64,000 bases of DNA, taken from assembly GCA_951406725.2 (NCBI GenBank), contig OX597834.1:23002001-23066000 (forward strand), in the 5' to 3' direction. The stretch is from Octopus vulgaris (taxonomy: Eukaryota). The notes beneath the pieces are model-generated. The model was not told the DNA's origin. It saw only the letters and a program-made list of their open reading frames with translations, and did no database searches. Both the position numbers and the translations under genes were made by a program. Of this stretch, positions 4,772 through 62,577 are shown piece by piece (the first letter of the stretch is position 1; each line of letters opens with the position of its first letter).

Positions 4772-5872
4772 TTATCTCTTGTGTGATTGTTTGTGAGTAA
4801 TCAAGTTGCTTTGCTGAACAAATGATTTACCACAGATATCACAGTGATATGGCTTCTTTCCCGTATGAGTGCGTATGTGAATTGTTAAGTTAACATTTTG
4901 AGGAAATGGTTTACCACAGATTTCACACAGATAAGGTTTTTCTCCTGTATGAATTTGTTTGTGTGTACTTAAGTGATGATTTGCAGAGAAGGATTTACCA
5001 CAGACATCACAGTGAAATGGCTTCTGTCCTGTATGAAAGCGTCTGTGTCTAGTGAGGTAACCTTTTTGAGAGAATGATTTATCACAGATATCACAGTGAT
5101 GTGGCTTCTCTCCTGTGTGATAGAGTTTGTGTGCAACTAAGTGATGCTTCAGAGAGAATGATTTACTACAGATATCACAATGAAATGGTTTCTCTCCTCT
5201 ATGAATATGCTTGTGCTCCGTTAACTCGCCATGTCCAGAAAATAGTTTACCACAAATATCACAATTATAGATTTTATCTCTTGTATGAATGTGTTTGTGA
5301 GTAATTAGGTTGCCATTTTGAGAAAATGATTCACCACAAATTTCACAGTGATATGGCTTTTCTCCCGTATGAGTACGTATGTGGGTAGTTAAGTTACCAC
5401 TTTGAGAAAATGACTTGCCACAAATAACACAGTGAAATGGTTTTTCTCCAGTGTGAATTTGCTTGTGTGTAGCCAAGAGATTATTTAGAGAGAATGATTT
5501 ACCACAGACATCACACTGATATGGTCTCTCTCCTGTGTGAAAGCGTGTATGTCTAGCTAAGTTACCTTTCTGAGAGAATGATTTACCACAGATTTCACAG
5601 TGAAATGGTTTCTCTCCAGTATGAAAAAGTTTGTGTGTAGTTAAGTGATGTTTTAGAGAAAATGATTTACTACAGATATCACACTGATATGGTTTCTCTC
5701 CAGTATGAATGCGTTTGTGAGTAGTTAAGTTACATTTTTGAGAGAATGATTTCTTGCATATATCACACTGATAGAATGTCTTTCCTTTCTCTTCCTTTAT
5801 ATCCTCAGGGAAATCGATAATTTGAGACTCTGCTTCACATTTAATCTTTTTCTCATACAATTCGTCTTCCAT
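4772..5872 (-). CDS. C2H2 zinc-finger protein A (12 tandem fingers, short acidic leader, no KRAB/ZAD/BTB)
   Basis: ORF 4772-5890; first ATG 5872 (MEDEL); CxxC-F-L-HxxxH with TGEKP linkers; predicted acceptor AG 6244-6243, donor 8762. Confidence 0.92.
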
Positions 5873-7079
5873 TCTTGTTTCTCTCGCCACAATAAATATA
5901 AAAGTTCTTCCTCACTTTATTTATATATTTTATTCCTATTTCTTTGGCTATATTTCTATCAACTGTGATTTTTGTCAATAATCGAAGATGCTGCAAATTC
6001 CTTTGTAATTCAGCTTCAATTTCAATATCAGATCATTATAATACAAATTCCAGTCTGTGAATTTGAGAGCATTTTGTATAAAAATTCCGTTCAGAGCCAA
6101 TATTCCACAGTAATTCTACCATAGATTTATATGATGAGGGTTCATATTTGTTGTGTATGACATCTTTTTGTTTTTAAAAGTTGATAAATATTGATGGATC
6201 TCAGGTAAATAATATTATTTTATGCCAATGTCATCTGATATTCTGAAATAAAAGAGAACCAAATATAAATATCGAGGATACTTAAATGAAAGACATTCCA
6301 CAGTGGACATTTTAGAACATTTCTTCTATAGTGAGAAATTGTAGATAGAAACCTTTACCAGGTCAATGGACCTCATCCACCTGTTCTTTTTGTTTTTCTT
6401 TTCTGCTGACAAAACATGCATCAATATCTTTGAGCTGGTGGAAATGCCAACTCTTTATATTTTACCAAATTTCAACGTCTCCTGTCGTTCAACACAACAG
6501 TAAAACTGCTCTGTTAGAAACTGAGTGAGAACTTGATAGCAACTTCTCATCTGAGACAAATATACAGCTTACTATATACGAGCACAAGGAGTGTATGATG
6601 TGTTTGTATCAATGCATGCTTCTTTACGTGTAAATGTGTATAATATCATCATCATCATTGATGGGTGTGGGTTAATGGATGCTTCTGTACATATATCATC
6701 ATTATTATCATCACTTAACAGCTCTCTTTCATAGAAGCATGGTTTGGATGTCTTGACAGGAATTAGTGAATCAAACAAGAACACCAAGATACACATACAG
6801 GTGTGTGTGTGTGGAATGCATCACACAATACGTAAAGAATACCCAATCCCAAAACTAACCTTAACAGAACTATAAATAAATTCCCACCAAGGCTGTCATT
6901 CTCTTCCATTTTTATCCCTCAATCTACCCGTTCATTCATGTCTTTTTCACCAAAAAATTAAAGATGTCATTTGTCACAGTTACACCTTTTCTCTGGCTGA
7001 AAGGAGTATGGTTTAATAAAGGTGTGTGTACATATATATGCAAAGAGATATGCAGACTTATACACACATGCATATAGCA

Positions 7080-8569: not shown

Positions 8570-8935
8570 AACAATAAGTAATGTCAGCTAAAGCAAGTTT
8601 TTCAACTCACTTCTATTATGTATGGGGATTAAGACATTGTTACTTTAGGAAAATTTCTTCACTTTCTTTCCTCTTTCTTTGAAAACATCAAAACAAACAG
8701 GTGCAGTAGGAAAATGACAGAATTTATACAATGTAGGAGTTGTTTCTATTAATAATACTTACATATTAATACAGAGCCAATGACGGAGATGTCACAATAT
8801 ATTCAAGTTGTTGCAACTCAGACTGGACAGCACATTTACATTTTACAATAAATCTTCCTTTATATTTCCACACCAACATAATAAAGATTACTGTAGCTGT
8901 TTCTTTCCGCAGTTAATTAGCAATCATCCAGTAAT
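8570..8935 (-). promoter_or_regulatory. ZNF-A putative non-coding exon 1 and conserved 5' intron
   Basis: Conserved module; donor GTAAGT at 8762-8757. Confidence 0.65.
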
Positions 8936-12450: not shown

Positions 12451-12664
12451 CCTTTTGGATGAGTAAACTTACATTTTCAGGTTGGTTTCTCCATTAGTAA
12501 GTATTTAGAAAATTATTAGATAAAGAAATTGACAACATAGAGAAAATTCATTTGAGCATCAGAAAAAAACAACACACGTCATATTCTGCTTCAATGTTGA
12601 TAATGAGCTGCTTTTCGTTATGCAGGAATACCTAGATGTTTAGTTGGGTAGTTTTTTTGAGAAG

Positions 12665-13780
12665 TCAGTGATATGGCTTTTCTCTAGTATGAGTACGTTT
12701 ATGACGACTTAATTCACTACTTTCAAAGAATGATTTACTGCAGGCATCACACTGAAATGGTTTCTCTCCTGTATGAATATACTTGTGAGCAGTTAAGCGG
12801 CTGTTTTGAGAGAAGAATGCTCCACAGACATCACAGTGATATGGTTTATCTGCAGTATGAATACGCTTGTGAATCATTAAGTGATGCTTCACAGAAAACG
12901 ATTTCCCACAGATATCGCACTCGTATGGTTTCTCTCCTGTATGAACACGTTTATGTATAGTCAAGACACTAGGTGCAGGGAATGATTTACCACAAATATC
13001 ACAGTGATACGGCTTCTCTCCTGTATGAACACGTTTGTGTATATTTAGGATTCTTGTTGCAGGAAACGACTTACCACAGACATCACAATGATATGGCCTC
13101 TCGCCCGTATGAATATGTTTGTGTCTGGATAAGCTAGAACTCTCAGAGAATGATTTACCACAGATATCACAGTGATATGGCTTTTCACCTGTATGAATAC
13201 GTTTGTGCTTAGTTAGGTTACTATCTTCAGAGAATGATTTACCACAGATATCACAATGATATGGTTTCTCTCCAGTGTGAATGCGTATGTGAGTAGTTAA
13301 GTCACAACTCCGAGGAAATGATTTATCACAGATATCACACTGATATGGCTTATCTTTTGTATGAATGTGTTTGTGAGTAACTAGGCTGCCTTTATGAGCG
13401 AATGATTTACCACAGATATCACATTGATATGGCTTCTCCCCTGTATGAGTACGTATGTGAGTAGTTAAGTTACAACTCTGAGGAAACGATTTACCACAGA
13501 TATCACACTGATATGGCTTATCTTTTGTATGAATGTGTTTGTGACCAATTAGGTGGGCTTTCTGGCAAAATGATTTATCACAGATATCACAGTGATATGG
13601 TTTCTCTCCTGTATGAATGCGTTTGTGAGTAGTTAAGTTACACTTTAGAGAGAATGACTTCTTACAGATATCACACTGATATAATGTTTTTCCTTTCTCT
13701 TTCTGTATATCCTCAGGGAAATCTATAATTTGAGACTCTGCTTCACATTTAATCTTTCTCTCACACAATTTGTCTTCCAT
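12665..13780 (-). CDS. C2H2 zinc-finger protein B (12 fingers)
   Basis: ORF 12665-13906; first ATG 13780 (MEDKL); acceptor AG 14154-14153; donor 14968. Confidence 0.92.
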
Positions 13781-14545
13781 CCTTGTTTCTCTCTCGACAC
13801 AGTAAATATAAATGTTATTCTTCACTTTATTTTTATATTTTATTCCTATGTCTGTGGCTATATTTCTATCAACAGTAATTTTCGTCAATATTCGAAGATG
13901 CTGCAAATTCCTTTGTTATTCAGCTTCAATTTCAATATCAAATCATTATAATACAAATTCCAGTCTGTGAATTTGAGAGCATTTTGCATAAAAATTCTGT
14001 TCAGAGCCAATATTTCACAGTAATTCTACCATTGATTTATATAATGGGAGTTTATATCTGTTCTGTATGACATCATTCGTTTGTCTTTAAAAATGGTAAA
14101 TATTGATGGATCTCAGGTAAATAATTCTTTTACGCCAATGTCATCTGATATTCTGAAACAAAAGAGAACCAAATATAAAATATCGAGGATACTTAAACCA
14201 AAGACATTCAATGATGGACATTTTATTACGTTCCTTCTTAATTGATAAACTGTAGATAGAAAAGTTTACTAGGACAATGGAACTCATCCACCTGTTTTTT
14301 TCTGCTAACAAAATATGCATCAATATCTTTAAACCAGTGGAAGCACCAACATTCTATATTTTACCAACATTGAACATCTTTAAAACGCTCTGTTGTCCAA
14401 CACAACAGTAAAACTGTTCTGACAAACACCGAGTGACGACTTGATAATAACTTCTCTGAGATAAATATGAATACAAAAAGAGTTTATGATGGGTGTGGGT
14501 TAATGCATGCTTCTGTACATGCATGTGTATATATATCATCACAAA

Positions 14546-16879: not shown

Positions 16880-17272
16880 AATATAGAGGTTAATTACTGA
16901 ATGATTGCTAATTAACTGCGGAAAGAAACAGCTACAGCAATCTTTATTATGCTGGTGTGGAAATATAAAGAAAGGTTTATTGTATAATGTAATTGTCCAG
17001 TCTGAGTTGCGACAACTTGAATATATTGTGACATCTCCGTCATTGGCTCTGTATTAATATGTAAGTATTATTAATAGAAACAACACCTACATTGTATAAA
17101 TTCTGTCATTTTCCTACTGCACCTGTTTGTTTTGATGTGTTCAAAGAAAGTGAAGAAATTTTCCTAAAGTAACGATGTTGTCTTAATCCCCATACGGGTC
17201 GGCTGTCATATACGTAATAGAAGTGAGTTGAAAAACTTGCTTTAGCTGACATTACTTACTGTTGTTTTAATA
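16880..17272 (+). promoter_or_regulatory. ZNF-C (possibly C and D) putative non-coding exon 1 module
   Basis: GTGACATCTCCGTCATTGGCTCTGTATTAATAT|GTAAGT, donor at 17061. Confidence 0.65.
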
Positions 17273-17274
17273 CG

Positions 17275-17810
17275 TCTGGCATTTCGACAATGCTTATTTG
17301 TGGGGACCTCCAGACAGGGTTCATGCTATTGCAAACATGATGGTTGGGGTGCTTGGTCGCTGGTGTTTCCAAGTAAACAGCTCCAAATGTGAGTTCTGGA
17401 TCCTCAACCACCCAGCTTCTCAACATCAACCAACTATTGACCTTTTTGTAGAGTCCTTCCCTTCCATTTCAGCTCCTCCCCATCAGCTTGATGCTCTCTA
17501 GGAGCCCCAATCACTGGCTACCTTTGAGCAATTGCTGAAAAATATTGAAGCAATCGAACCCCATCAAGGTTATTTCATACTTAGGAATTACCTCTTAATC
17601 CCTAAGCTTCAATATTTACTCAGGGTCAGCTCATCTTACCGATTCCCATCATGCCTCCAATGCTTCGACAACCTAATCTTTGAGAACCTCGAATGCTTAG
17701 TCAATTTCAGACTCTCTCCAATGTCCCGCAAACGGGTTGCATTGCCTATGTGATATGGAAGACTTGGTCTTTGTAAGTGCTTGTCCCTCTCTCTCCCCTG
17801 CTTCCTCACA
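17275..17810 (+). mobile_element. CRE-like (RLE-type) non-LTR retrotransposon RT fragment in ZNF-C intron
   Basis: WHFDNAYLWGPP (WYLDD-like), VNSSKCE, LGAPI, PKLQYLLR, ALPM*YGRLGL. Confidence 0.65.
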
Positions 17811-18457
17811 CAGTGCCTAACAGAACAGTGTTACTGTTGTGTTGGACAACAGGAGACTGTGGAGATGTTGAAATTTGGTAAAATATAAACAGTTAGCATT
17901 TCCACCAGCTCAAAGATATTGATGCATGTTTTGTTAGCAAGAAAAAATTGATGGATAAGGTCCATTGTCCTGGTAAAGGTTTATGTCAACAATTTTTCAC
18001 TATAGAAGAAATGTTGTAAAATGTCCATCGTTGAATGTCTTTCATTTAAGTATCCTCGATATTTTATATTTGGCTCTCTTTTGTTTCAGAATATGAGATG
18101 ACATTGGCATAAATGAAATATTTACCTGAGATCCATCAATATTTATCATCTTTTAAAGCCAAACAGATCATACAGAACAGATATAACCATTCATTATCTA
18201 AATCTGTGGTATAATTACTGTGAAATATTGGCTCTGAACAGAATTTTTATACAAAATGCTCTCAAATTCACAGACTGGAATTTGTATTATAATGATTTGA
18301 TATTGAAATTGAAGCTGAATTACAACGGAATTTGCAGCATCTTCGAATATTGACAAAAATCACAGTTGATAGAAATATAGCCAAAGAAATTGGAATAAAA
18401 TATAAAAATAAAGTGAAGAAGAACTTTTATATTTATTGTGGCAAGAGAGAAACAAGA

Positions 18458-19390
18458 ATGGAAGACAAATTGTGTGAGGAAAAGATTAAATGTGAAACAG
18501 AGTCTCAAGTTATTGATTTCCCTGAGGATATACAGAAAGAGAAAGGAATAACATTATACTACTGTGATATCTGTAATAAATCATTGTCTCAAAAGTGTGG
18601 CTTAACTCACAAACTCATTCATACAAGAGGGAAACCATGTAATTCTGACGTCTCTGGCAAATCACTCTCTCATAAAAGCAGCCTCATTAGTCATAAACAC
18701 ATTCATACAAAGGATAAACCATACCACTGTGATATCTGTGATAAGTCATTCTCTGAAAATGGCAACCTAACTAAACACAAACGTATTCATACAGGAGAAA
18801 AACCATATCACTGTGATATATGTGGTAAATCATTCTCAGACAGTTCTAGCTTATCCAGACACAAACATATTCATACACGTGAGAGGCCATATCATTGTGA
18901 TATCTGTGGTAAATCATTCCCTGCACCAAGAATCTTAACTATTCACACACGTGTTCATACAGGAGAGAAACCATATCACTGTGATATCTGTTGTAAATCA
19001 TTCCCCTCACCAAGTATCTTAGCTAAACACAAACGTGTTCACACAGGAGAGAAACCATACGAGTGCAATATCTGTGGTAAATCATTTTCTGTGAAGCATC
19101 ATTTAATGATTCATGTACGTATTCACACTGGGTATAAACCACATCGCTGTGATGTCTGTGGAAAATTCTTCTCCCAAAACAGTCACTTAACTGCTCACAA
19201 ACGTATTCATACAGGAGAGAAACCATTTCGATGTGATATCTGCAGTAAATCATTCCTTGAAAGTAGTGAATTAACTCGTCATAAACGTACTCATACAGGA
19301 GAGAAGCCATATCTCTGCGACATATGTGGAAAATCATTCTCTCAAAAAGGTTACTTAACTAAACACTTGGGTATTCATAAACAACAGTAA
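18458..19390 (+). CDS. C2H2 zinc-finger protein C (8 intact + 2 degenerate N-terminal fingers)
   Basis: ORF 18332-19390; first ATG 18458; acceptor AG 18088-18089. Confidence 0.9.
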   Translation: MEDKLCEEKIKCETESQVIDFPEDIQKEKGITLYYCDICNKSLSQKCGLTHKLIHTRGKPCNSDVSGKSLSHKSSLISHKHIHTKDKPYHCDICDKSFSENGNLTKHKRIHTGEKPYHCDICGKSFSDSSSLSRHKHIHTRERPYHCDICGKSFPAPRILTIHTRVHTGEKPYHCDICCKSFPSPSILAKHKRVHTGEKPYECNICGKSFSVKHHLMIHVRIHTGYKPHRCDVCGKFFSQNSHLTAHKRIHTGEKPFRCDICSKSFLESSELTRHKRTHTGEKPYLCDICGKSFSQKGYLTKHLGIHKQQ

Positions 19391-20575
19391 CGAGCTCATT
19401 ATCAGAATGGAGTTGGTGATAAATGCAGTACATGATGTAGATTATTTTGTCATGATGATCAAATGAATTTTTCCCACTTTTCCAGTTTCTTCAGTGAATA
19501 ATTTTCTGAATACTTCCTAATATTCAGAAAACTTAGTGTAGAAACAAACAAGAAAAGACAAATTCACTCATCAAAAAATTGAAAACTACACTTTTACTGC
19601 ATTGTGTGAAAATCTGAGATGGTGGGTTTCAAAATTCCTTTTTTTGTCCTTGGTTGGAATCACCCATTAGTTATTCCTTATGCATCTTGCAATGCACTCC
19701 ACACATACACACCTATATGTGTGTATTTATATCTTGGTGTTCGTGTTCAATTCACCAATTGCTGTCAAAACATCCAAACCATGCTTCTATGAAAGAGAGC
19801 TGATAAGTGATGATGATGATGGTGATGATATATATACACACATATGCATGTACAGAAGCATGCATTAACCCACACCCATCATAAACTCTTTTTGTATTCA
19901 TATTTATCTCAGAGAAGAAGTCACTATCAAGTCCTCACTCGGTATTTGTCAGAACAGTTTTACTGCTGTGTTGGACAACAGAGCATTTTAGAGATGTTCA
20001 ATGTTGGTAAAATATAGAATGTTGGTGCTTCCACTGGTTTAAAGATATTGATGCATATTTTGTTAGCAGAAAAAAAAAACAGGTGGATGACTTCCATTAT
20101 CCTGGTAAAAGTTTCTATCTACAGTTTATCAATTTAGAAGGAATGTAATAAAATGTCTTTCATTTAAGTATCCTTGATATTTGATATTTGGTTCTCTTTT
20201 GTTTCAGAATATCAGATGACACTGCCATAAAAGAAATATTTACCGGAGATCCATCAATATTTATCATCTTTTAAAGCCAAACAGATCATACAGAACAGAT
20301 ATAACCATTTATTATCTAAATCTGTGGTAGAATTACTGTGAAATATTGGCTCTGAACAGAATTTTAATACAAAATGCTCTCAAATTCACAGACTGGAATT
20401 TGTATTATAATGATTTGATATTGAAATTGAAGCTGAATTACAAAGGAATTTGCAGCATCTTTGAATATTGACAAAAATCACAGTTGATAGAAATATATCC
20501 GAAGAAATTGGAATAAAATATAAAAATAAAGTGAAGGAGAACTTTTATATTTATTGTAGCGAGAGAGAAACAAGA

Positions 20576-21760
20576 ATGGAAGACAAATTGTGTGAGAAAA
20601 AGATTAAATGTGAAACAGAGTCTCAAGTTATTGATTTCCCTGAGGATATACAGAAAAAGAAAGGAAAAACATACCACTGTGATATCTGTAATAAATTATT
20701 CTCTCATAAACATACATTAACTACACACAGAGGCATTCACACAGGAGAGAAAAAATATCAGTGTGATATCTGTGGTAAATCATTTAATCAAAATCAGAAC
20801 TTAACTATTCACATACGCATTCATACAGGAGAGAAACCATATCAATGTGATATCTGTGATAAATCATTTTGTCGAAAAGGCGATCTAATAAGTCATAAAC
20901 TCATTCATACAGGAGAGAAACCATATCAGTGTGATATCTGTGGTAAATCATTTCGTCGGAATTGTGACTTAACTGCTCACAAACACATTCATACAGGAGA
21001 AAAGCCGTATCACTGTGATATCTGTGGTAAATCATTCTCTCAAAAAAGTAGCCTAGCTAATCACAAACGCATTCATACGGGTGAGAAACCATATCAGTGC
21101 GACATCTGTGATAAACCATTTGCTAAAAATGATGATCTAAGCAGGCACAAACGTATTCATACGGGAGAAAAACCATATCACTGTGATATCTGTGGTAGAT
21201 TATTCTCTGATTGTTCTGTCTTAGCTACACACAAACATATTCATACAAAGGAGAGGCCATATCATTGTGACATCTGTGGAAAATCGTTTCCTGCACCAAC
21301 AATTTTAAATAGACACAGACGTTCTCATACAAGAGAGAAGTTGTATCACTGTGATATCTGTAGTAAATCATTCCCTGCACCTAGCTTCTTAACTATACAT
21401 AAACGTATTCACACAGGAGAGAAACCATATGAGTGCGATGTGTGTGGTAAGGCATTCTCTGTGAAGCATCACTTAACTACACATACACGTATTCATACTG
21501 GAGATAAACCACATCACTGTGATGTCTGTGGAAAATTCTTTGCTCAAAACAGTCACTTAACTGCTCACAAACATATTCATACAGGAGAGAAACCATTTCA
21601 GTGTGATATCTGCAGTAAATCATTTCTTCAAAATAGTGAATTAACTATTCATAAACGTTCTCATACAGGAGAGAAGCCATATCTCTGTGACATATGTGGA
21701 AAATCATTCTTTCAAAAAGGCTGTTTAACTAAACACTTAGGTATTCACACACCACAGTAA
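20576..21760 (+). CDS. C2H2 zinc-finger protein D (13 fingers)
   Basis: ORF 20468-21760; first ATG 20576; acceptor AG 20206-20207; AATAAA 21994-21999. Confidence 0.92.
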
Positions 21761-23669
21761 CAAACTCATTATCAGAATAGAGTTTGTGATAAATGCTGTA
21801 GAATATTTTTTCATGATGATCAAATGAATTTCTCCCACTTTTTCAGTTTCTTCAGTGAATAATTTTCTGAATACTTCCTAATATTCAGAAAACTTACTGT
21901 AGAAACAAACAAGAAAAGACAAATTCACTCATCAAAAAATTGAAAACTACACACTTACTGCATTGTGTGTACCAAAACCATCGAAATTCACTGAATAAAA
22001 AATTATGTAGGATACAACCAAAAATATATTCTCCTTTCCAAGAAGCTATCACATTATATTTTGTATAGTTACATAAATATATCTTTAGTGTGAAGTAACT
22101 TTCCTCTGTGATATGTTTGATAAAGCTTTCTTTCTCCATATATATATATATATATATATCATCATCATCATCATCGTTTAACGTCCGCTTTCCATACTAG
22201 CATGAGTTGGACGGTTCGGGTGGGGTCTGGGAAGCCAGAAGGCTGCACCAGGCCCAGTCTGATCTGGCAGTGTTTCTACAGCTGGATGCCCTTCTCCAAC
22301 TGACTTATTTTCAGAAGAGAGAAAGCACACACTTTATTTATTTAACATTATGAGTAAATTACTGAGACACGTATTCTCTTCAATCTTGTTATAACATCAC
22401 TTAAAATGTTAGAAATCATAGACTGGTGTCATCATCACCATCATCATCATTTGATATCTCGTTTCCAAGCTACCTTGAATTCTGCACTCTTTGAAACTCC
22501 AACTGTTTCTACATTTGATTTTACAGTCTCTGAAGATGTTTCAAGGATCCTTCTTGCTCATTTAGACACTGTAATCATGGCTGGCAATTCATTCTAACAC
22601 CAATCACTTTACACAGTGACCTGGGACAGTAAATGGACACTTAACAAAGTTCCAAAATACAGATATACAGCATAGTCTCCATGTCTGGCAACAGATTAAC
22701 ATCCATTTTGCCCTCCTAGCATCCATGCATGTATCTTCTCTAGCTCTGTATGTTACCAACCGTGTGGTTCACAATCTGATAGCTTTAGCTTCTGGACATT
22801 TCTCTCCATATGTTACGTATTCTGCATCTTCTATACATTGTTTCATGTATCTTACATATATCCTGGTTTAAATGTTATTATGGATGTATCCCACCAAGGG
22901 ACTAATTCTGATGTTGTTTTGATTTCTACAGTTTTATCATTTCTTTTATTTCTAGTATGATTCCTTCATGACTTGAGGGTTAAACTGAATGTTTATTTGC
23001 AAGTATGAATGTAACCTTAAACTTGATATAAATGCAAAATGAATGACGTAATTTGGGAATCATCATCATAGTCATCAGTGTTTTATTGTCCATTCTACAT
23101 GATGGTATGGGTTTGATATGTCTGTTACACAAGATATCAGCGCATTTTCTCAATTATGAGGCCCAGGATCTTGAATTCTGACCTCATCATTCTTTGTAAA
23201 TATTCTTAATTACCTGAAATTGAAATAAATGTGGTTTTGCTCTTCAATTATTCTCCTGTTATTCTAAATGTAGAACATTTAACCAAAACTTGTCCTGACA
23301 CAACCATAAACTACAGAATTCACAGACTTGATCAATGTCTGATAAAAGTTACACATTTTCCAAACTGATCTTCAAAGATGTTTACTTTGTATTTATATAA
23401 TTTGTTGACATTATTTGATAGTAAATATTAGATATTATAGGTTATGATGAAGTGAATGAGAGATGAACGATAAGATAACTTTATACATTAAATGCTAAAG
23501 ATGGTGGTTATGTAATTAAGATGTGATGTAACCAATAGGTTGATGGTAGCCAAGCAAGAGGCAGTCTAAAGAAAATAATCATAGCGAACCACGGCATTAC
23601 TGGTACTTCATTAGCCCCTAAGTAAATAAAAGGATCAGCAGGCCCTGGTAGGAATCGAAATCACAAAGT

Positions 23670-24392
23670 AGATGGACAAAACTAAATACTGCCAACAATT
23701 AAATCAAGAATTCCAGTATTTCTAGCAAATCGTTGGATTACAAATGACAAGCATTAATTAATAAATATTAATTACTAACATTGGCTCAAGGCCACACATT
23801 TTGGTGAAGTTCTGGATGGATTCAATCTACAACAAACGAAGTAGTACGAAAGATAAAGACCAATGTAGTGGGATTTGAACTGAGAACATAAATGGATGTA
23901 ACTTAATACCAAATATGCTATCTACCACCCATAAATGGTAGAGAGCAGTGTTAATGTAGCTTCTTTGGTAACAAAACAAGACTTTGGTCTTGTTGATGGA
24001 AATATACCAGTAATACTTTCCAGTTGTCAGGAACACAATTTATAATTAATGGACATAAGGACAAAAACTTCACTGCTAATTTACTTGTGTAGATGTAACA
24101 TTCTCAGGAAATTCTTACTATTTAATACAAGACATTGCAATCACATCTGGATGAATGACTCTCTACTGTTATGTTAGATATGACGACAGTCTCAGTGATA
24201 GACCAGTTGGTGTTATAAAGTCTCCCTTCCATATTCTTCAAAGTTAATGGCAGCTCTGTTCTCCTTCACTTAAGAATAGTGTTTGAGTTTGTAATGAAGT
24301 TTCACTCTGGTCATGTTGTTCTAAATATACCGCTAATACTTTCCAGACGTCAGAAATACAAACTGTTTATAATTAATGGACATAAGGACATC
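23670..24392. repeat. Direct segmental duplicate of ~52467-53190
   Basis: Near-identical ATTACTAACATTGGCTCAAGGCCACACATTTTGG...; matching spurious ORFs 23827-24036 and 52624-52857. Confidence 0.9.
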
Positions 24393-28748: not shown

Positions 28749-29762
28749 TTACTGTTTGGCATGAGTAATGGTATGAGTGGTTAAGTTCGATTTTTGAGAG
28801 AATGATTTACCACAGACATTGCAGTGATATGGCTTCTCTCCTGTATGAACACGTGTATGTACTCTTAAGTGTCTTCCATCAGAGAATGATTTACCACAGA
28901 TACTGCACTGATATGGCTTCTCTCCAGTATGAATACGTTTGTGAGTAGTTAAGGCACTATTTACAGAGAATGATTTACCACAGATCTCACAGTGATATGG
29001 TTTCTCTCCTGTATGAATACGCCTGTGTGCAGTTAAGGCACTATTTACATAGAATGATTTATCACAGATATCACAGTGATATGGTTTCTCTCCTGTGTGA
29101 AAACGTTTGTGTACTGTTAAATGTCTTCTATCAGAGAATGATTTACCACAAATTTCACAATGATATGGTTTCTCTTCTGTATGAATAAGTATGTGTTGAT
29201 TTAAGTGACTACTTATAATGAATGATTTACCACAGATACTGCAGTGATATGGTTTGTTTCCAGTATGATTACGTTTGTGAATAGTTAATTGATCATTCCT
29301 AGAGAATGATTTACCACAGACATCACAATGGTATGGCTTCTCTCCTGTATGAATCCGTATGTGAAGATTTAAGTGACCACTTAAGGAGAATGATTTACCA
29401 CAGATGCTGCACTGATATGGTTTGTTTCCTGAATGAATATGTTTGTGAGTTGTTAACTGATCACTCCTAGAGAATGATTTACCACAGATATCACAGTGAT
29501 ATGGCTTCTCCCCTGTATGAATACGTATGTGTTTGGTTAAATCATTACTCCTACAGAATGATATACCACAGATGTCACACTTGTGCGGTTTTTCCCCTGT
29601 ATGAATACGTTTGTGACTAGTTAGGTTATATTTTACAGAGAATGTCTTCTTACAGATATCACATTGATATAATGTTTTTTTTCTCTCTTCATTTATGTCA
29701 CCAGGGAAACTAATCTGTTTAGATTGGGTTTCAGACTTGTTCTCATATAATTTCCTTTCCAT
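28749..29762 (-). CDS. C2H2 zinc-finger protein E (11 fingers)
   Basis: ATG-initiated ORF with TGEKP-linked fingers; acceptor AG 30116-30115; donor 30611. Confidence 0.93.
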
Positions 29763-30399
29763 AATTTTCTGATCCTCACCACAATGTACAAATGGTTCTG
29801 TTAGTTTTGGTTTTATATTTTATTCTTAACAAATATTTCTTCTGCTATTATTTCACTCAACTGTGACCCTTGTTGAGATTTGAAGTTACCACAAACTCCT
29901 ATGTAGTGTAAGTTTAATCAAAATATATAAATCATCTTGTACGGTAAAGTAGGAAAATCTTACAGATAATCTGTTATTAGTAATTACTTACTCCAGTAAT
30001 AAAAAAGAGGCTTATATCTGTTCTTCATCACAATTTCAATTTGTCGTTAAAAGATGATATAGATGCTTGGGTGGTGGTGGTGGTGCGCTTTTCGTCGCCA
30101 TGTCATACGATATTCTGAAACAAGAGAAATAGTATAAATTATTAAAAAATATTGTGGAAATAAACGAAAAATAGAAAATGTCAACGTTTTAACCGAAGCC
30201 ATTGATCTACAATACCGTGTCAACAAGGGGCTTGTACAGAAGAAAGTAGGCCCGATGTTATAAATGAAGGTAAATGATGACTAAACAGTGTATTCACCTT
30301 AAGAAATACTTTCTCTTTGAGTTAACATTAAGATATTGGGGGAATAACGATAATTGGAATGCAGAGTGGAAAGGAAAACAAAGTATTCAGACAACAATA

Positions 30400-31561: not shown

Positions 31562-34036
31562 CATTGATCTTTGTTGATCACGGGTGGCCGTAGAAAAAAA
31601 GATGAATATAAGCGTGTTGAATGAATCGATGACAAATGAATAATAGAATACATCGGAAAAATAGTTTTTCGTTCAGAGACTCCAACGCACCCAAACAGTC
31701 TTTAAACATACATAATAATTTTGTTTCATGGTTGGAATAAAATAATAAAATTTAATTACATACGATCAGTACAAAAGAAAAAATGTAACCGTGAAAAATA
31801 TAACACTTACGGATTCCACTGAGTTAGTGTAATGTAGGAAGGTGTGCTGGAGTTAGACGAGGTTGGGATCGTCATCTTCATCTTCTGTGTTGTCATCGTT
31901 ATTTGTTGGAGCTGATTGTGGTAGAGAGAGAATGCCTGAGAAGTCTGGTTTAGAGTCAGGGTCAATGTTATTGACTTGGATACGAGGTGTAGAAGACCTA
32001 ATAGTGAGAGCTCCATAACGGCTGGATACCGGCTCTTCTTTCTGCGGTGCTGGAGAACCAGAAAAACTGCCAAAGAGAGGAGTTATCATCGACTGCTTAT
32101 TTAATGCCTGTCGTTCCCTATAAATTTCTTTGTAGGGTGCAATGCCACGATCTAGAATGGCAGTTACAGATTCTTTTCTCTCAAAACTTGGATCTGCTTC
32201 CTGTATGAGTTGAGTCAACTGCTCATAGTAGGACATTATTTTTTTTAGGTTTGACATGGTTAATGTTGGACTAGATTCTACACAGTCGCCGTCATCGTCC
32301 TCTGTGCCTATGTCATTTTGTTTTTTGTCGACTAATTCCAACACCTCTGTGTCATTTAATTCTCGCTCAGGAGATTCCATCATATTCCAGATGTCATTTT
32401 CATTGAGGTCTTGAAAACCATCCCCAGGTAATGCTTTTGCCATGTTTAGAACTCGAGTCATGTTATCCTCTTCAAACCCAACGAAGTCTGGAGTTGTGTC
32501 AGGCAATAAGTTGCGCCATCCATTCAAAAGACATCCTTGAGTTACAGCTTGCCAAGCCTTGCCAATGAAGCGAACACCGTGTAGAATGTTGAATCGTTTC
32601 CAGTATTGCCGTACAGTCAGTTCCTCATCGTCCACCAGTGCCTTGTGTATATCCTCAAAGGTATGGTCAAGATAGAAAAGCTTAAATGTGGCCATCACTT
32701 CTTGGTTCATAGGTTGCAGCAATGACTGAGTGTTAGGCGGTAAATAAATCACTTTGATTTCATTCTGAATGTCATTTAAGTTTGTAGAATAGCCAGGACA
32801 ATTGTCTAACACAAGAATTGCTTTAAAAGAAATATTCTTCGTGGCACAGTATTCTTTCACTTCAGCGCGGAAGTGGGTCATGAACCACTCTTCAAAAACC
32901 CCTTTAGTCATCCACCCATTTTTATTAGCACGCCAGTGCACAGGGAGAGTTAACATGCTAATGTTCTGGAAAGGACGAGGCCGGGCAGAACGATGTATAA
33001 GCAGTGGTTTAGCTTTAAAATCACCAGAGCCGTTACAACAGAACAACAGAGACACACGGTCTTTAGCGTCTTTAAAACCCGTCGTCATGGCCTCTTCTTT
33101 CGCTACGTAACTTTTTTCAGGCATCTTTTTCCAATAAAGGGCTGTTTCAACTGCATTAAAAACTTGACACGGTAAATATCCACCCTCATTCATCATTTTA
33201 TAAATTTCTTCAATATAACGCCGAGTTGTCTCTGTATCATCTGATGTTGCATCACCTGAAACAAGTTTGCTGGCTAAATTATATCGTTTAATGAATTTCT
33301 GTACCCACCCACGGCTACCCTGAAAAGTATATTTGTCCTTATCAACAACATCACTAAGCTCAACCAAGCTCTTATATATTTGCTTAGCACGATTCTGGAT
33401 ACGTTTTGTTGACACAGGAAGCCGCTTACTGTAACAGTCCTGCATCCACAAATAAACCCCCTTTTCCATGGGCTGAATAAAAGCATCTTTATGTACTCTG
33501 ACTATTCGATTCACTGATCTAGGGGCAGCATCCGTGAATGCATTCATTATATCTCCACGCACTTTGTAAATGGAACGAATGGTGGATTCATTAACACCAA
33601 ACTCGCGGCCCACACCAGCGAAGCTTGCCCCGTCATATATTTTCTTGATCATCTCCACTTTTTCCTGTAAAGAATACACTCGTCTACGTCGTTTGTTCAG
33701 ATCGGGTGCTTTCGTATTGTTTCTCTTCGTTGGTCCCATGTTCATAGGTTCCTGTATATAAATCCGTATTAAAAAATACACAGCCTCAGAACACGGTCAT
33801 GTAAACACAAGTGATAATCAGTGCATTCTGGGTAGCTGAGCATCAGCGGGATGGTTGCTGGAGGGGAAGGTTGGTTTATTTTATTATTTTTTTGCGGTGC
33901 AAGCAGAATCTTCGACTGATCCCTGACCTGTATTTTCACATATCAGTCCTTGATAAACATAACATGGTTTACAATTAAGCGTGCCGTGTTATCCAGGATG
34001 AGTGTTGAATGAGTCAGTGATGAACGAGGTTGCAAG
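31562..34036 (-). mobile_element. Tigger/pogo DNA transposon footprint (~2.5 kb) with degenerate TIRs between TA dinucleotides
   Basis: TA-CATTGATCTTTGTTGATCAC (31560-) vs reverse complement TA-CTTGCAACCTCGTTCATCAC (-34038), about 15/22 by manual alignment; tandem GTG(T/A)TGAA(T/C)GAG subterminal sites. Confidence 0.55.
31853..33745 (-). CDS. Tigger/pogo-derived (TIGD1/CENP-B-like) protein: HTH-psq, HTH-CENPB, catalytically altered DDE_1 domain, acidic tail
   Basis: Uninterrupted ORF 31853-33781; ATG 33745 or 33739; FGVNESTIRSI, FQGSRGWVQKF, FNAVETALYWKKMP, LDNCPGY, QPMNQEV. Confidence 0.85.
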   Translation of the reverse strand: MNMGPTKRNNTKAPDLNKRRRRVYSLQEKVEMIKKIYDGASFAGVGREFGVNESTIRSIYKVRGDIMNAFTDAAPRSVNRIVRVHKDAFIQPMEKGVYLWMQDCYSKRLPVSTKRIQNRAKQIYKSLVELSDVVDKDKYTFQGSRGWVQKFIKRYNLASKLVSGDATSDDTETTRRYIEEIYKMMNEGGYLPCQVFNAVETALYWKKMPEKSYVAKEEAMTTGFKDAKDRVSLLFCCNGSGDFKAKPLLIHRSARPRPFQNISMLTLPVHWRANKNGWMTKGVFEEWFMTHFRAEVKEYCATKNISFKAILVLDNCPGYSTNLNDIQNEIKVIYLPPNTQSLLQPMNQEVMATFKLFYLDHTFEDIHKALVDDEELTVRQYWKRFNILHGVRFIGKAWQAVTQGCLLNGWRNLLPDTTPDFVGFEEDNMTRVLNMAKALPGDGFQDLNENDIWNMMESPERELNDTEVLELVDKKQNDIGTEDDDGDCVESSPTLTMSNLKKIMSYYEQLTQLIQEADPSFERKESVTAILDRGIAPYKEIYRERQALNKQSMITPLFGSFSGSPAPQKEEPVSSRYGALTIRSSTPRIQVNNIDPDSKPDFSGILSLPQSAPTNNDDNTEDEDDDPNLV

Positions 34037-34530: not shown

Positions 34531-35849
34531 TTTAAGAATATTCCAAGAATTACACAGAATAATTACTCAAAGGTGTAGTCTTCGGAAATAATCGGTCTGA
34601 TTTGCATTTGATGAAGCTTGTGCACATACATGTGTGCTAGCGGACGTTCGGAAACACGCTTTTGTAAAGGTGTTGTGTCCTCCTTCTGTCTTTCGAAGCT
34701 TTCCAAACACGACCATCATGTCATTTTAAAACGTTCCAATCATGCCCACCCAGTTTGTTTTTGAAAGCGATCCAACCCTCACCATCTCGTCTTTTAACCC
34801 CATATCTCCCTCATGTCTCACTCCGTAGTTTTTGGACGGACTTTCGGCGTTGCTGGCTCTGTTTTGGTCGAGATTTTGCCTATCTTTCCATTTTTTTTTT
34901 GTTCTGGTTTATTTTGTATTTCAAACGTCTCCCCTCCTCCCATCATGTCTATTGACAAACAATCGCCAATAATATGATTTTTTTTGCTATGTTTTGTCAT
35001 TACATTCTGAAACGCATCTAATTTGCATTAAAAAAACAAAACTCCTCGCCTTACTTGATCGTATCTTCAGAAAATGGGTACGTGTGTGTATATATGTGTA
35101 TGTATTTATGTATGTATGTAAACTTTTGGTCTTAAAAAGGAATGGCTATATTAGACGAGTTCCATTCTTCAGGTAAACGTTTCCATCTACCGTTTATCAA
35201 TATAAAAAAAAATGTAGTAATCTTAATTTTATGTATCCTCTGTTTCTTTATATTTCATTCTCTTTTATTTCAGAACATCAGATGACATTGGCATAAAAGA
35301 ATTATTAGTTACTTGAGTTCGTTACTTGGAGACCAAAAATAAATTATGCAGAACAGACTTAATCCTGTTTATATAAGTCTGTTGTAGAATTACTGTGAAA
35401 TATTTGCTGTGAACTGAGATTAACAGTGAAATTTCCCTGTTTCACTGTCTGAAATGAGTGGAAGATGAATTTATATTGTAATTAAAATTGGATAACAAAG
35501 GACTTTGCAACATCTTCAAATATCAACAAAGATCACAGTTGATGGAATTATAGCAGAAGAAATATTTATTTGGAGTGAAATCTAACAATTTAAAGAAAAC
35601 CATCTATAGCAAGTGGAATTTTATTAATGGATGAGCAGGCTTCAGGAGACATCTTCAGAGGAAGAATTTCCATCAAGCATTTTGTTCCATTGGTTCTTGT
35701 TACTGGAAGGGATCCAGCCCGTGTAGATCATGACTGTCAAGTGTCCCCCTGTTGATTTTGAATTGCTGCATTTAGTGGGGATTGAACTCAGAACTTTCGG
35801 GTAATCTTATTGACCTGAAGTATATACTACAGTGAAAGACGAAAACATT

Positions 35850-37133
35850 ATGGAAAATGAATTATATGATAACAAGGTTAAATGTGAAACGGAGTCTGAA
35901 AGTATTGATTTTTCTGATGACGTAAAAAAGGAGAGTAAAAAACCATATCTCTGTGATGTCTGTAAAAAGTCATTTCCTCGTAAAGATAACCTAAATATTC
36001 ACAAACGTATTCATACTGGAGAGAAATCCTATCATTGTAACATCTGTGGTCAGTCATTTTATGCTAGCAGTCACTTAACAAGACACAAGTACACTCATAC
36101 AGGAGAGAAGCCATATCATTGTGATATCTGTGGGAAATCATTCTCTTATGGGACCAGTGCTGTAACTAAACATAAGCGCATTCATACAGGAGAGAAGCCA
36201 TATTACTGTGATATGTGTGGCAAATCATTCTCTGAAAATGGGGCCTTAACTACTCACAGACGTATTCATACAGGAGAGAAACCATATCACTGTGACATCT
36301 GTGGGAAATCATTCTGTCAAAATTATGACTTAACTAAACACAAACATATTCACACAGGTGAAAGGCCATATCACTGTGATATCTGTGGAAAATCATTCTC
36401 TCGAAACGACCACTTGTCTACACACAAGCGCATTCATACAGGGGAGAAGCCACATCACTGTGACATCTGTGATAAATCATTTTCTGATGGAAGTTACTTA
36501 ACTAAACACAAACGTATTCATACAAATGAGAAGCTATATCATTGTGATATCTGTGGTAAATCATTCTGTGTGAGTAGTAACTTAACTAAACACAAATACA
36601 TTCATACAGGAGAGAAGCCATTCTGCTGTGACATCTGTGGTAAATCATTCTCTGGAAGTGTTAACTTGACAAAGCACAAACGTATTCATACAGGAGAGAA
36701 ACCATATCACTGTGATGTCTGTGGTAAATCATTCTCTGGAAGTGGTGACTTGACTAAACACAAACGCATTCATACAGGCGAGAGACCATATCATTGTGAT
36801 ATCTGTGGTAAATCATTCTGCGGCAGTAGTGACTTAACTAAACACATACGCATTCATACAGGAGAGAGGCCATATCAGTGTGATATCTGTGGTAAATCAT
36901 TCTCTAGAACTGGTGATTTAACAAAACACAAACGTATTCATACAGGAGAGAAACCATATCACTGTGATATATGTGGTAAGGCATTTTGTCAGAGTGGTGA
37001 ATTAATTTCTCACAAACGTATTCATACAGGAGAGAAACCGTATCATTGTGATATATGTGATAAATCATTTTCTCAAAATTGTGACCTAGCTAAACACAAA
37101 CGCATTCATAAAAGAGAAGCCATATCGCTGTGA
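35850..37133 (+). CDS. C2H2 zinc-finger protein F (14 fingers; 15th out of frame)
   Basis: ORF 35832-37133; first ATG 35850; acceptor AG 35272-35273. Confidence 0.92.
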
Positions 37134-45083: not shown

Positions 45084-46607
45084 TCACTGTTTTATATGAA
45101 CAGTTCTATGTGTGGATAAGTGACTTCTTTGGGAGAAGGATTTACCACAGATGTCACAGTGGTGTGGCTTCTCTCCTGTATGAGTGCGTCTGTGCACAGT
45201 TAAAGTATCATTTCTAGAAAAGGAATTCCCACATATATCACAGGAATAGGGCTTCTCTCCTGTGTGCACATGATTGTGTACAGTTAAGTTACTACTGAAA
45301 GAGAATGATTTACCACAGATATCACAGTGATATGGTTTCTCTCCTGAATGAGTGTGTTTATGTTTAGTTAAGGTATCATTCTTAGAGAAGGATTTACCAC
45401 AGATATCACAGGAATATGGTTTCTCTCCAGTGTGAATACGTTTGTGGGTAATTAATTGACTAGTTACACAAAATGATTTGCCACAGATATCACATCGGTA
45501 TGGTTTCTCTCCTGTATGAATACGTTTGTGAGAATTTAAGTCACCACGCTGACAAAATGCTTTGCCACAGATATCACAGTGATATGGCTTCTCTCCTGTA
45601 TGAGTACGTTTGTGAGCAATTAAATCACCAATTGTAGAGAATGATTTACTACAGACATCACAGTCATATGGCCTCTCCCCTGTATGAATACGTTTGTGCT
45701 TAGTCAAGTCACCATTTTGAGAGAATGATTTACCACAGATATCACACTGATATGGTTTCTCTCCTGTATGAATACGTTTATGTTTAGTTAAGTCTCCTTG
45801 TTGAGAGAATGATTTACCACAGACATCACAGTGATAAGGTTTCTCACCTGTATGAACACGTTTGTGATTAGTTAATTGACAATTTACAGAAAATGATTTA
45901 CCACAGACATCACAACGATATGGCTTCTCTCCAGTATGAATACGTTTGTGAATATTAATGTTACCACTTCTAGAGAATGCTTTACCACAAATATCACAGT
46001 GGTACGGTTTATCTCCACTATGAATACGTTTGTGAGTAGTTAAGCCACTGCTTGCAGAAAATGCTTTCCCACAGATATTACAGTGATAGCGTTTCTCCCC
46101 TGTATGAATAACTTTATGTTTAGTTACATCACTCTTCTCATAGAATGATTTACCACATATCTCACAGTGATATCGTTTCTCTCCTGTATGAATGCGTTTA
46201 TGCTGAGTTAAGTCACCATTTTGAGAAAATAATTTCCCACAGATATCACAGTGATATGGCTTCTCTCCTGTATGGATGCGTTTGTGATTGATTAAAGAAC
46301 CATTTACAGAGAATGATTTACCACAGATATCACACTGATATGGTTTCTCTCCTGTATGAATTCGTTTGTGAATTGTTAGGTTATCTCTTCTAGGAAATGA
46401 TTTACTGCAGACATCACAATGGTATGGTTTCTCTCCAGTATGAATACGTTTGTGAATAGTTAGGTAACACTTCTGAGCAAATGCCTTCTTACAGAAATCA
46501 CATTGGTAGAACCCTTTTTCTTTCTTTTTCATTCTATCATCAGGGACACAAATACCTTGAGTGAGAGTGTCACACAGGCCCTGTTTCTCAACTAATTTAA
46601 CATCCAT
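45084..46607 (-). CDS. C2H2 zinc-finger protein G (17 fingers)
   Basis: ATG-initiated 507-aa ORF; acceptor AG 46949-46948; donor 48228. Confidence 0.93.
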   Translation of the reverse strand: MDVKLVEKQGLCDTLTQGICVPDDRMKKKEKGFYQCDFCKKAFAQKCYLTIHKRIHTGEKPYHCDVCSKSFPRRDNLTIHKRIHTGEKPYQCDICGKSFSVNGSLINHKRIHTGEKPYHCDICGKLFSQNGDLTQHKRIHTGEKRYHCEICGKSFYEKSDVTKHKVIHTGEKRYHCNICGKAFSASSGLTTHKRIHSGDKPYHCDICGKAFSRSGNINIHKRIHTGEKPYRCDVCGKSFSVNCQLTNHKRVHTGEKPYHCDVCGKSFSQQGDLTKHKRIHTGEKPYQCDICGKSFSQNGDLTKHKRIHTGERPYDCDVCSKSFSTIGDLIAHKRTHTGEKPYHCDICGKAFCQRGDLNSHKRIHTGEKPYRCDICGKSFCVTSQLITHKRIHTGEKPYSCDICGKSFSKNDTLTKHKHTHSGEKPYHCDICGKSFSFSSNLTVHNHVHTGEKPYSCDICGNSFSRNDTLTVHRRTHTGEKPHHCDICGKSFSQRSHLSTHRTVHIKQ

Positions 46608-47950
46608 TATTTTTCTCTATCACTACAATATTCAAATATTTTCCTTCTGTTTATTAGTATCTTTTTATTCCTAACACATATTCTTCCACTATATTTCATT
46701 CAACTGTAATCTTTGTTGATACTTGAAGATGCTGCATTTTCCTTCATAATCCAACTTTTTATCAGAATATAAAATAAGTTCACACATATTTCAGATGGTG
46801 ACATAGAGAAATTTTGCAAATAATTTCAGTTCAGAGCAAATATTTCCAAACAACTTTATCAAAGAATCTTCCTTTGGTTTTTAAAAGATTAAAGATATTG
46901 ATGGATCTGAAGTCAATAATTCCCTTACACCAATGTCATCTGATATTCTGAAAGAAAAGAGAAAAAATATAAAATAGAGAGGATATTTAAGAAGTAGACA
47001 TTCAACAGTGGACGTTTTACTACATTTCTTCTTTATTGACAAGCTATAGATATAAGCCTTTCAGTCTGAATATTTTATTTCTCATCGATATCAGCCTCTG
47101 GCTGTGTGTATTGGATGTATACATAATCACAGAAATGAGATTAAATTCACCTAATTAACAAAGTCCTTATTTTACATAAGACTAAATAAACTGAGCTAAT
47201 TACAGTTTTATACAGTACATTGTATACAATAAAACACCATACTTTAGAATTTAGGAGACATTCAGTGACTCTTTTTGAACAATCTTACCTAAATTTCTTA
47301 GAAAAAAAAAAGTATCTGTTACCCGTTTCAAACTCTCTCAACTTCGACAACTATGCTGATCAATCTCGACTCCTAAAGATGGAGTGAAAGCACAAAACAA
47401 CGATACAATACTCACTATGTAATAATTTCAAACAAACAAAAAAAAAACCGAATAAAATTGAAAAATTACTCATTTTGCCCCACCACCTGGCGCGCGCGCA
47501 GTATTTGTCTACTGCTACACAGATACTTTTATTTGTTGTTTAAATATTGTTAATCATTTATTTCAGATTCTGTGATGGTGCAGAGAATTAATGTCGATCT
47601 CTGATTAACCACATCAAAATCATTTATAATTAACGATGTTGGTAAAAAATTGTCAAGTTTTTATGCTACAAAGAAAGGTAAAGATGACTAAACAATTGAC
47701 CTTAAAAAATATAAACTTTCTCTTTGAGTTGAGGTTAAGATATAGGGGAATACCGATAACTGAAAAGCTAATTGGAAAGAAGAACAGTGGAAGTATTAAG
47801 ACAACAATAGTTAATGTTAGGTAAAGCAAGTTTTTCAACTCACTTCTATTACATATGTAACATCCGACCCGTATGGGGATTAAGAAATCGTTACTTCAGT
47901 AAAAAAAAGTTTTTTCTTTACTTTCTTTTTTTTATATTAGAATACTATTT

Positions 47951-49949: not shown

Positions 49950-50247
49950 GTTGTTGCTAATGAACTGTGGACAGAAATCGCTTCAACGGTCTTTAAGACG
50001 ATATGAAAATCTAAATGAAGGTTTCTTGTGAAATATAGAAGTTGTGTTGAAGCTGTCATCGTCCAATCTGAGTTGTGACTATTTGAATCTATGGTGACAT
50101 CTTCGTCATTGGCTCTGTATTAATATGTAAGTATTATTGATAGAAACAACATCTACATTGTATAGGTCGTGTCCTCTTTCTACTACATGTGTTTGTTTTG
50201 ATGTGTTCAAATATAAAGGAGAGAGAGTGAAGTAAAGAAGAAATTCT
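49950..50247 (+). promoter_or_regulatory. ZNF-H putative non-coding exon 1 module
   Basis: GTGACATCTTCGTCATTGGCTCTGTATTAATAT|GTAAGT, donor at 50127. Confidence 0.65.
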
Positions 50248-62060: not shown

Positions 62061-62577
62061 GGAAAAAATTTGAAAAAATACTGCCGAGATGATTTACCTT
62101 CTCTGTTACCTTTATGTATAAGTCTTGAAACGGGAGAAGATCGTTTGTCAAATAAAGTTTTATCAATATAGAAGAAATGTAGTAAAGTGTCAGTTGAATG
62201 CCTACTTTTTAAGTATCCTCTATATTTTCTATTTCTTTATTATTTCAGATTATCAAATTACATTGGCATAAAAGAATTATTTACTCCAGACCCGTCAATA
62301 TTTATCACTTTTTAATGACTAAAAGGAAATGCCATACAGAACAAATATAAACTTTGTTTATATAAATCTGTGGTAGAATCACCATGAAATATTTGCTGTG
62401 AACTGAAACTGATTGCAGAATAGCGTTACTTCATTGTCAGAAATACATACAAAATGAATTTATTGTCTAATTAAACTCAGATTCCTAGTAAATTTACAGC
62501 ATCTTCAGATATTGACAGAAAATCACAATTGAAGGAAATACAGTGGAAGGAATATTCGTGGTGAGACATGAAAAATT

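What the first reader, a model, noticed from the sequence alone, without database searches (positions are those of the whole stretch)
17000..22000. ZNF-D has no first exon and ZNF-C lacks the family poly(A) site: two coding exons on one promoter?
Seen: every other ZNF has its own AT|GTAAGT exon-1 module. Between C's stop (19390) and D's acceptor (20207) there is only C 3'UTR (to ~19608) fused to intron-derived sequence. C's 3'UTR homology to D breaks about 25 nt before the AATAAA that D keeps (21994-21999). D's ORF is nevertheless intact. Inference: exon 1 (donor 17061) may splice to either 18090 (C) or 20208 (D), giving alternative terminal coding exons on a constant 5' exon, the reverse of the clustered-protocadherin layout. 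An AATAAA at 20147-20152 could serve C.
Basis: partly seen in the sequence, partly recalled or inferred. Interest (0 to 1): 0.72.

Follow-up and report, generated by a model that had tools for sequence, protein, structure and literature searches.

The report
Octopus zinc-finger gene missing its promoter
In an octopus cluster of zinc-finger genes, one intact gene has lost its own promoter module and first exon and sits directly behind its neighbour, so it likely borrows the neighbour's first exon by alternative splicing, which is untested and is a layout already known from flies.

Summary
The anatomy is real. Nine copies of a promoter/exon-1 module lie in the window; of nine ZNF frames, D alone has none, and 19391-20207 gives no hit to a module profile. 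C's 3'UTR stops matching D's at 19608, 24 nt before D's AATAAA, and runs into the 3' half of a family intron. Two corrections: that AATAAA is not family-wide, and the AATAAA at 20147 is chance-level and also in B's intron. D is not a fresh exon copy of C. Its 13 fingers are all intact, old (synonymous distance to C 0.37, helices shared with an O. bimaculoides protein) and selected (dN/dS 0.22), while its flanks are a mosaic of B-like and C-like tracts. So D is an old gene decapitated by a rearrangement. The spacer is CpG-poor, unlike family promoters, and D's acceptor equals C's, so splicing of exon 1 (17060) to 20208 is the likeliest route of expression (about 0.5). The junction is undated: a recent loss with D silent remains open (about 0.3). 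No reads were examined. If true, it works like Drosophila lola/PGRP-LC 3' variable exons, with a non-coding constant exon: a new variant of a known kind.

The parts
16890..17060 (+). Family promoter-proximal block and exon 1 (start site unknown; no ATG in 16991-17060, so likely non-coding). A-type: 4.9% from A's, 21.9% from B's
17061..17068 (+). Family splice donor GTAAGTAT, 9 of 11 U1 matches; the only + strand module upstream of C and D
17061..18089 (+). C intron (1029 nt): A-like at both ends, with an insertion at about 17274-17803 that A lacks
18090..18457 (+). C exon-2 leader after the acceptor TTTCAG; 4.1% from D's leader; short upstream ORFs
18458..19390 (+). ZNF-C ORF, 310 aa, 8 canonical fingers plus 2 broken N-terminal fingers
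19391..19608 (+). C 3'UTR, 5.3% from D's, cut off at 19608; no AATAAA/ATTAAA
19609..19665 (.). 57 nt behind the junction with no homologue in the window
19666..20207 (+). 3' half of a family intron without its 5' half: 1.9-5.9% from B's intron, 19% from C's; CpG-poor
20147..20152 (+). AATAAA, candidate poly(A) signal for C; also in B's intron; chance-level
20185..20207 (+). D polypyrimidine tract and CAG acceptor, same pyrimidine count as A, B and C
20208..20575 (+). D exon-2 leader; 5 differences from C in the first 38 nt allow junction reads to be told apart
20576..21760 (+). ZNF-D ORF, 394 aa, 13 of 13 canonical C2H2 fingers, old lineage under purifying selection
21761..21999 (+). D 3'UTR with AATAAA at 21994-21999 (candidate signal; use not shown)
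22776..23333 (+). Downstream tract, inverted copy of the region behind B (12222-11694), 2.5% substitutions

Best explanation
ZNF-D is an intact, long-selected octopus C2H2 gene that has no promoter module or first exon of its own and lies directly behind the truncated 3'UTR of ZNF-C, and it is likely expressed by splicing C's first exon (donor 17061) to D's acceptor (20208), skipping C. Shown: the missing module, the junction at 19608, the intact acceptor and ORF, the age and selection of the finger array. Inferred: D was once a full gene and was decapitated by a deletion, or by arrival of the chimeric C unit; transcription from C's promoter, meeting no canonical poly(A) signal until 56 nt before D's acceptor, runs on into D; the one donor then has two equal acceptors 2.1 kb apart, the near one giving C mRNA (ended at 20147, at a variant signal, or at D's signal) and the far one giving D mRNA. 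Each mRNA would carry a whole ORF, so one promoter would yield two proteins with different recognition helices.
For: No module in the spacer, 0 hits against 9 of 9 elsewhere. Spacer CpG 3 observed versus 22.5 expected; the 600 nt before the 9 donors hold 120 versus 143.8 (P about 1e-5 for the spacer at the promoter ratio; only 11 of 316 equal-sized windows are as low), so it looks like transcribed gene body and not like a family promoter (gene-body methylation in molluscs is recalled, not tested). Acceptor of D equals A, B, C in pyrimidine count and AG-free zone. The 3147-nt intron needed is near the family range of about 470-2520 nt. D keeps 52 of 52 zinc ligands, C has 2 broken fingers. C-D fingers pS 0.367, pN 0.104, dN/dS 0.22 (8 finger pairs). 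D helices 4 and 11 match O. bimaculoides protein P0121 at 8 of 9 and 9 of 9 residues. If D had been dead for 2-2.5% of lineage divergence (half the C-D UTR distance), staying open with all ligands has P 0.0015-0.03.
Against: No junction read, transcript or gene model was seen; no orthologue of C or D was found in the protein collections (best relative 62%). The junction is undated: if D lost its exon only 0.5% ago, P(intact though dead) is 0.28-0.40, at 1.25% it is 0.035-0.10. No docking/selector pairing: longest duplex between C's intron and the spacer is 9 bp, shuffles give 8-12. The near acceptor is made first and may win nearly always (general splicing knowledge). In Drosophila Or46a, transcripts that run from the upstream promoter into the downstream paralogue are judged unproductive (PMC12187929, passages). 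pS may be inflated by exchange between fingers.
Confidence: 0.5

Rival explanations
1. Recent decapitation: a young, possibly polymorphic deletion removed C's poly(A) region together with D's promoter and exon 1; D is a pseudogene in waiting, present at most as the untranslated tail of C read-through RNA.
For: D's intron lineage is 19% from C's and 15.5-19% from A's, about as deep as B's exon 1 is from A's and C's (20-22%), so D probably once had its own exon 1. Nothing dates the junction. P(intact though dead) is 0.28-0.40 at 0.5% divergence. The cluster is unstable: H lacks its acceptor/leader, B ends in a truncated last finger, C has 2 broken fingers.
Against: A decapitated exon with an intact acceptor inside an active transcription unit would still be a splicing substrate (inference). 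C-D 3'UTR homology ends exactly at the junction; if both arose together the event is about 2.6% per lineage old and survival by luck is about 1% or less.
Confidence: 0.3
2. D has a new start site of its own in the spacer or in its 368-nt leader and is made as an unspliced or differently spliced mRNA; its ORF needs nothing from exon 1.
For: The whole ORF and its ATG lie in exon 2; family proteins annotated in Octopus begin at the same ME start.
Against: No module similarity, CpG o/e 0.13 in the spacer and 0.42 in the leader versus 0.49-1.08 before the 9 donors, no donor better than 7 of 11 in the spacer.
Confidence: 0.1
3. Assembly or haplotype artefact: the real chromosome carries D's promoter and exon 1 between C and D.
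For: The block is full of 2-5% repeats; no read or second assembly was seen across the junction.
Against: No N in the window. The junction lies at the edge of the C/D repeat and joins it to different sequence; a collapse inside that repeat would delete D, not create a new joint (inference). The repeats are under 600 nt.
Confidence: 0.06
4. D receives a first exon from another module in trans or from far upstream, as lola does in part.
For: The last 49 nt of A's and C's exon 1 are identical; lola uses cis- and trans-splicing (PMC1947980, passages).
Against: C's module is 3.1 kb upstream on the same strand and needs no special mechanism; the other modules to the left are on the minus strand.
Confidence: 0.04

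Closest known systems
Drosophila lola (PMC1947980, passages)
   Same: Common 5' exons joined to alternative 3' exons that carry different zinc fingers, giving several transcription factors from one locus.
   Different: lola's constant part codes for a BTB domain and there are about 20 isoforms, partly by trans-splicing; here the constant exon appears non-coding, each terminal exon is a whole ORF, there are two, and splicing is unshown.
Drosophila PGRP-LC, CG42235 and Pip 3' variable regions (PMC6191721, abstract and outline)
   Same: One 5' part, alternative 3' cassettes, choice between near and far acceptors.
   Different: There the choice is set by competing RNA pairings; none above chance was found here.
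Drosophila Or46a and Or69a tandem receptor loci (PMC2204066 and PMC12187929, passages)
   Same: Tandem paralogous coding units treated as splice forms of one locus.
   Different: For Or46a the run-on transcripts over the downstream unit are judged unproductive; that Or69a forms share a short first exon is recalled and was not in the passages seen.
Conjoined / read-through genes (PMC2953495, search listing and start of abstract)
   Same: Exons of two same-strand neighbours in one transcript.
   Different: There both parents are distinct genes; D has no promoter module, so joining would be its only route.
Clustered protocadherins of vertebrates (as described in PMC9068888, passages)
   Same: One shared element and several paralogous exons.
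   Different: Variable first exons spliced to shared final exons: the opposite polarity. The same paper says that cephalopod protocadherin diversity arose by full gene duplication.
Octopus C2H2 cluster genes with an ME..LCE leader
   Same: Leader, start position and finger type; 9 of the 10 relatives looked up are Octopus proteins (the tenth, a lacewing protein, matches in a finger region).
   Different: In this window 8 of 9 frames have their own module; D does not.

Membership tests
Octopus tandem C2H2 zinc-finger genes | Tandem C2H2 fingers behind a short ME..LCE-type leader | tested here: met
3' variable-region loci (lola, PGRP-LC type) | Tandem paralogous 3' units, each with its own acceptor, behind one 5' exon | tested here: met
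3' variable-region loci (lola, PGRP-LC type) | Transcripts join the common 5' exon to each 3' unit | not tested
   no reads were examined; junctions 17060^18090 and 17060^20208 are both unseen
3' variable-region loci (lola, PGRP-LC type) | Constant exon codes for a shared protein domain | tested here: not met
   no ATG in 16991-17060; the frame upstream of the MED start is closed or shifted in A, B and D; annotated relatives start at ME
3' variable-region loci (lola, PGRP-LC type) | Competing docking/selector RNA pairings | tested here: not met
   longest duplex 9 bp versus 8-12 in 40 shuffles, 16 versus 13-17 with G-U
3' variable-region loci (lola, PGRP-LC type) | Each 3' unit has its own poly(A) signal | tested here: inconclusive
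   D has AATAAA at 21994; C has only the chance-level 20147 hexamer and variants
Clustered protocadherin layout | Variable first exons with their own promoters spliced to constant last exons | tested here: not met
   one 5' module and two 3' coding exons
Conjoined / read-through genes | Both parents are separately promoted genes | tested here: not met
   D lacks a module and a CpG-retaining upstream region; a non-family promoter is not excluded
Decayed pseudogene | Disabling changes or neutral dN/dS | tested here: not met
   open ORF, 52 of 52 ligands, dN/dS 0.22; a very recent loss of function would not show yet

The most novel reading that the evidence does not exclude
An old octopus zinc-finger gene was captured by its neighbour's promoter and is kept alive as an alternative terminal exon: one promoter and one non-coding exon choose between two whole transcription factors with different DNA-reading codes. 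This would be a lola-like locus caught at birth, made by promoter capture instead of exon duplication, in a family thought to grow by whole-gene duplication, and other promoterless intact fingers in cephalopod clusters would be read the same way.
Probability: 0.3. Interest if true: 0.62.

Novelty: new variant of a known kind. Interest (0 to 1): 0.4.

Why it matters
Cephalopod C2H2 genes number in the thousands (2785 in the squid Doryteuthis pealeii, PMC9068888, passages) and are counted as separate genes. A case where two share one promoter and first exon would show a second way to diversify them, would change gene counts and annotation, and would show how a 3' variable region can start from two old genes by one rearrangement. 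It is cheap to test: one RT-PCR with a D-specific primer. If D is silent, this is ordinary birth-and-death turnover in a ZNF cluster.

Tried and rejected
Run search over 16900-22100: no RNA holder listed on record; shares were all under one half and are not used as evidence either way. No whole genome is held for this window, so paralogues outside it could not be checked. Protein search with full C: 120 listed hits were generic fingers at 41-57% identity, none informative; with the leader: no hit. Only the profile-free library scan (56 hits; 10 of 56 looked up) gave family members, none an orthologue close enough to show isoform annotation. Earlier findings of the scan: 0 by place, words and sequence. 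Rejected: D as a recent exon copy of C (intron 19% apart, arrays pS 0.37); a single inversion or single tandem duplication as the whole history (it cannot give B-like flanks around C-like UTRs around a distinct array); the 20147 AATAAA as an adaptation; RNA pairing control; a cryptic donor in the spacer. A likeness between the end of C's UTR and a stretch of A's intron near the homologous point was seen by eye but lies about 60 nt from the junction and was not scored: inconclusive. Enrichment of D-lineage changes at contact positions (10 of 25; P 0.006-0.024 against uniform) is not significant against B plus C (3 of 19; Fisher P 0.10), so positive selection is not claimed. The insertion in C's intron gave no Pfam hit for the one frame tried. 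Literature searches showed no report of shared first exons in cephalopod C2H2 clusters in their listings; the library lacks most subscription papers and supplements were not read.
Full report
Setting. The window holds nine long C2H2 frames: A 4772-5911 (-), B 12665-13915 (-), C 18296-19390 (+), D 20465-21760 (+), E 28749-29819 (-), F 35814-37133 (+), G 45084-46616 (-), H 54431-55450 (+), I 62572-63645 (+). The N-terminal leader places them in an Octopus family: of 56 library hits, 10 were looked up and 9 are O. bimaculoides or O. sinensis zinc-finger proteins, most starting at the same ME codon. The best is 62% identical, so no orthologue with usable isoform annotation was found. The window has no N.

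Observation. A typical member is built as promoter block, short exon 1 ending AT, donor GTAAGT, one intron, acceptor TTTCAG, a leader of about 370 nt, then the whole ORF. A profile of the nine exon-1 modules recovers all nine at 201-301 bits and nothing in 19391-20207, even with filters off. One module (2739-) belongs to a gene beyond the left edge; the other eight pair with A, B, C, E, F, G, H and I. D is the only frame without one. C's 3'UTR matches D's up to 19608/21969, 24 nt short of D's AATAAA at 21994. Behind the junction come 57 nt with no homologue in the window and then 19666-20207, the 3' half of the intron as in A and B. D's ORF is open with 13 of 13 canonical fingers; C has 8 plus 2 broken ones. 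The AATAAA is not a family site: UTR homology is limited to C, D and weakly B, and signals in the other genes lie at unrelated distances. The 20147 hexamer is shared with B's intron and arises in 60% of shuffles.

What D is. Segment-wise distances show a mosaic. C's promoter block, exon 1 and intron are A-like (4.9%, 3.1% and 10.5% substitutions). D's intron remnant is B-like (1.9% and 5.9%; 19% from C). D's leader, N-terminus and 3'UTR are C-like (4.1%, 3.2%, 5.3%). D's downstream tract is again B-like (2.5%). The finger array is D's own: over 8 orthologous finger pairs C-D pS is 0.367 and pN 0.104, dN/dS 0.22, 0.16 outside the helix. Fourfold sites differ at 7 of 31 in the first five shared units and 1 of 20 in the last three, so the C-like tract may reach into the last fingers; pS may also be inflated by exchange between fingers. 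D helices 4 and 11 match O. bimaculoides P0121 at 8 of 9 and 9 of 9 residues, better than any other finger of the eight frames compared; for 3 more of its 7 full fingers a D helix ties for the best count and for 2 it does not. D is therefore an old, selected paralogue that lost its 5' half secondarily, and its flanks have been exchanged with neighbours by conversion or segmental copying (inference). The order of events cannot be fixed from one haplotype.

How D could be expressed. The spacer is unlike a family promoter: 3 CpG against 22.5 expected, while the 600 nt before the nine donors hold 120 against 143.8; only 11 of 316 equal windows are as poor. I read this as methylated gene body (recalled knowledge of molluscs). 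It has no donor better than 7 of 11 U1 matches. D's acceptor has the same pyrimidine count and AG-free zone as A, B and C. Transcription from C's promoter meets no AATAAA or ATTAAA until 20147, 56 nt before D's acceptor, so it likely enters D. One donor then faces two equal acceptors; joining to the far one removes a 3147-nt intron, slightly above the family's longest (2520 nt in A), and gives an mRNA with the same 438-nt leader measured from 16991 and fewer upstream ATGs than C's (3 versus 5). No RNA pairing that would steer the choice was found. I put this at 0.5.

The weak point. The intact ORF shows selection up to the loss of exon 1, not after it. Simulated neutral decay leaves D open with all 52 ligands in 0.15-1.1% of runs at 2.5% lineage divergence, 3.5-10% at 1.25% and 28-40% at 0.5%. 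If the junction arose with the C-D UTR copy (5.3% apart, homology ending exactly at the junction), D must have been maintained; if it is a later deletion, D may be dead. No reads and no second haplotype were examined, so neither splice junction nor the genomic junction has been seen outside this assembly. Rivals: recent decapitation 0.3, own start site 0.1, artefact 0.06, exon from another module 0.04.

Comparison. It would work like Drosophila lola, where common exons join unique zinc-finger exons (PMC1947980, passages), and like the PGRP-LC 3' variable region (PMC6191721, abstract and outline). It is not a member of either kind as defined: the constant exon appears non-coding and no competing pairing is seen. 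Or46a is the cautionary case, with run-on transcripts judged unproductive (PMC12187929, passages; PMC2204066, passages). The protocadherin layout has the opposite polarity, and cephalopod protocadherins are described as full duplicates (PMC9068888, passages). Searches listed no report of shared first exons in cephalopod C2H2 clusters; only listings were seen for most of those papers and no supplements were read.

Verdict. A real, well-defined anomaly with a plausible but untested mechanism of a known general kind. Interest 0.40; 0.62 if the junction is shown and conserved.

Noticed in passing
window 54431-55450 (+), module at 50127 (+): ZNF-H has an exon-1 module upstream but no family acceptor/leader and no ME start: the converse defect to D. 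Its donor could be idle or join a later acceptor such as I's.
   Followed up: partly
window 31853-33796 (-): Intact 647-codon pogo/Tigger-type frame with CENP-B_N, HTH_Tnp_Tc5 and DDE_1, lying head-to-head with F's promoter and upstream of E; no second copy in the window; may be domesticated. A partial promoter block lies at 31209-31134.
   Followed up: partly
window 20512-20530 and the matching leader positions of A, B, C: Two AATAAA hexamers sit in the exon-2 leader upstream of the ATG in A-D; use would give non-coding transcripts, and D's pair could end C read-through RNA.
   Followed up: no
window 20314-20440 and homologues in A, B, C: Leader block with only 1-5 mismatches per 80 nt among A-D against 10-20 in the flanking intron: conversion tract or constrained element.
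   Followed up: no
window 17012-17060 (+) and 8763-8811 (-): The last 49 nt of exon 1 are identical in A and C, so short junction reads cannot tell the two donors apart.
   Followed up: yes
window 14968/17061, 30611/34347, 48228/50127: Three head-to-head pairs of modules (B/C, E/F, G/H), two of them about 2 kb apart; B's promoter resembles H's (78%).
   Followed up: no
window 12600-12680 (-): B's 13th finger is cut by a deletion and an early stop, and B's 3'UTR is 32% from C's and D's although its outer flanks are 2-6% from D's.
   Followed up: partly
window 23671-24390 and 52468-53187: 720-nt direct repeat at 94.8% identity, not identified.
   Followed up: no
window 17274-17803: Insertion in C's intron; one frame reads like a decayed retroelement protein (recalled likeness), no Pfam hit for its first 75 residues.
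   Followed up: partly
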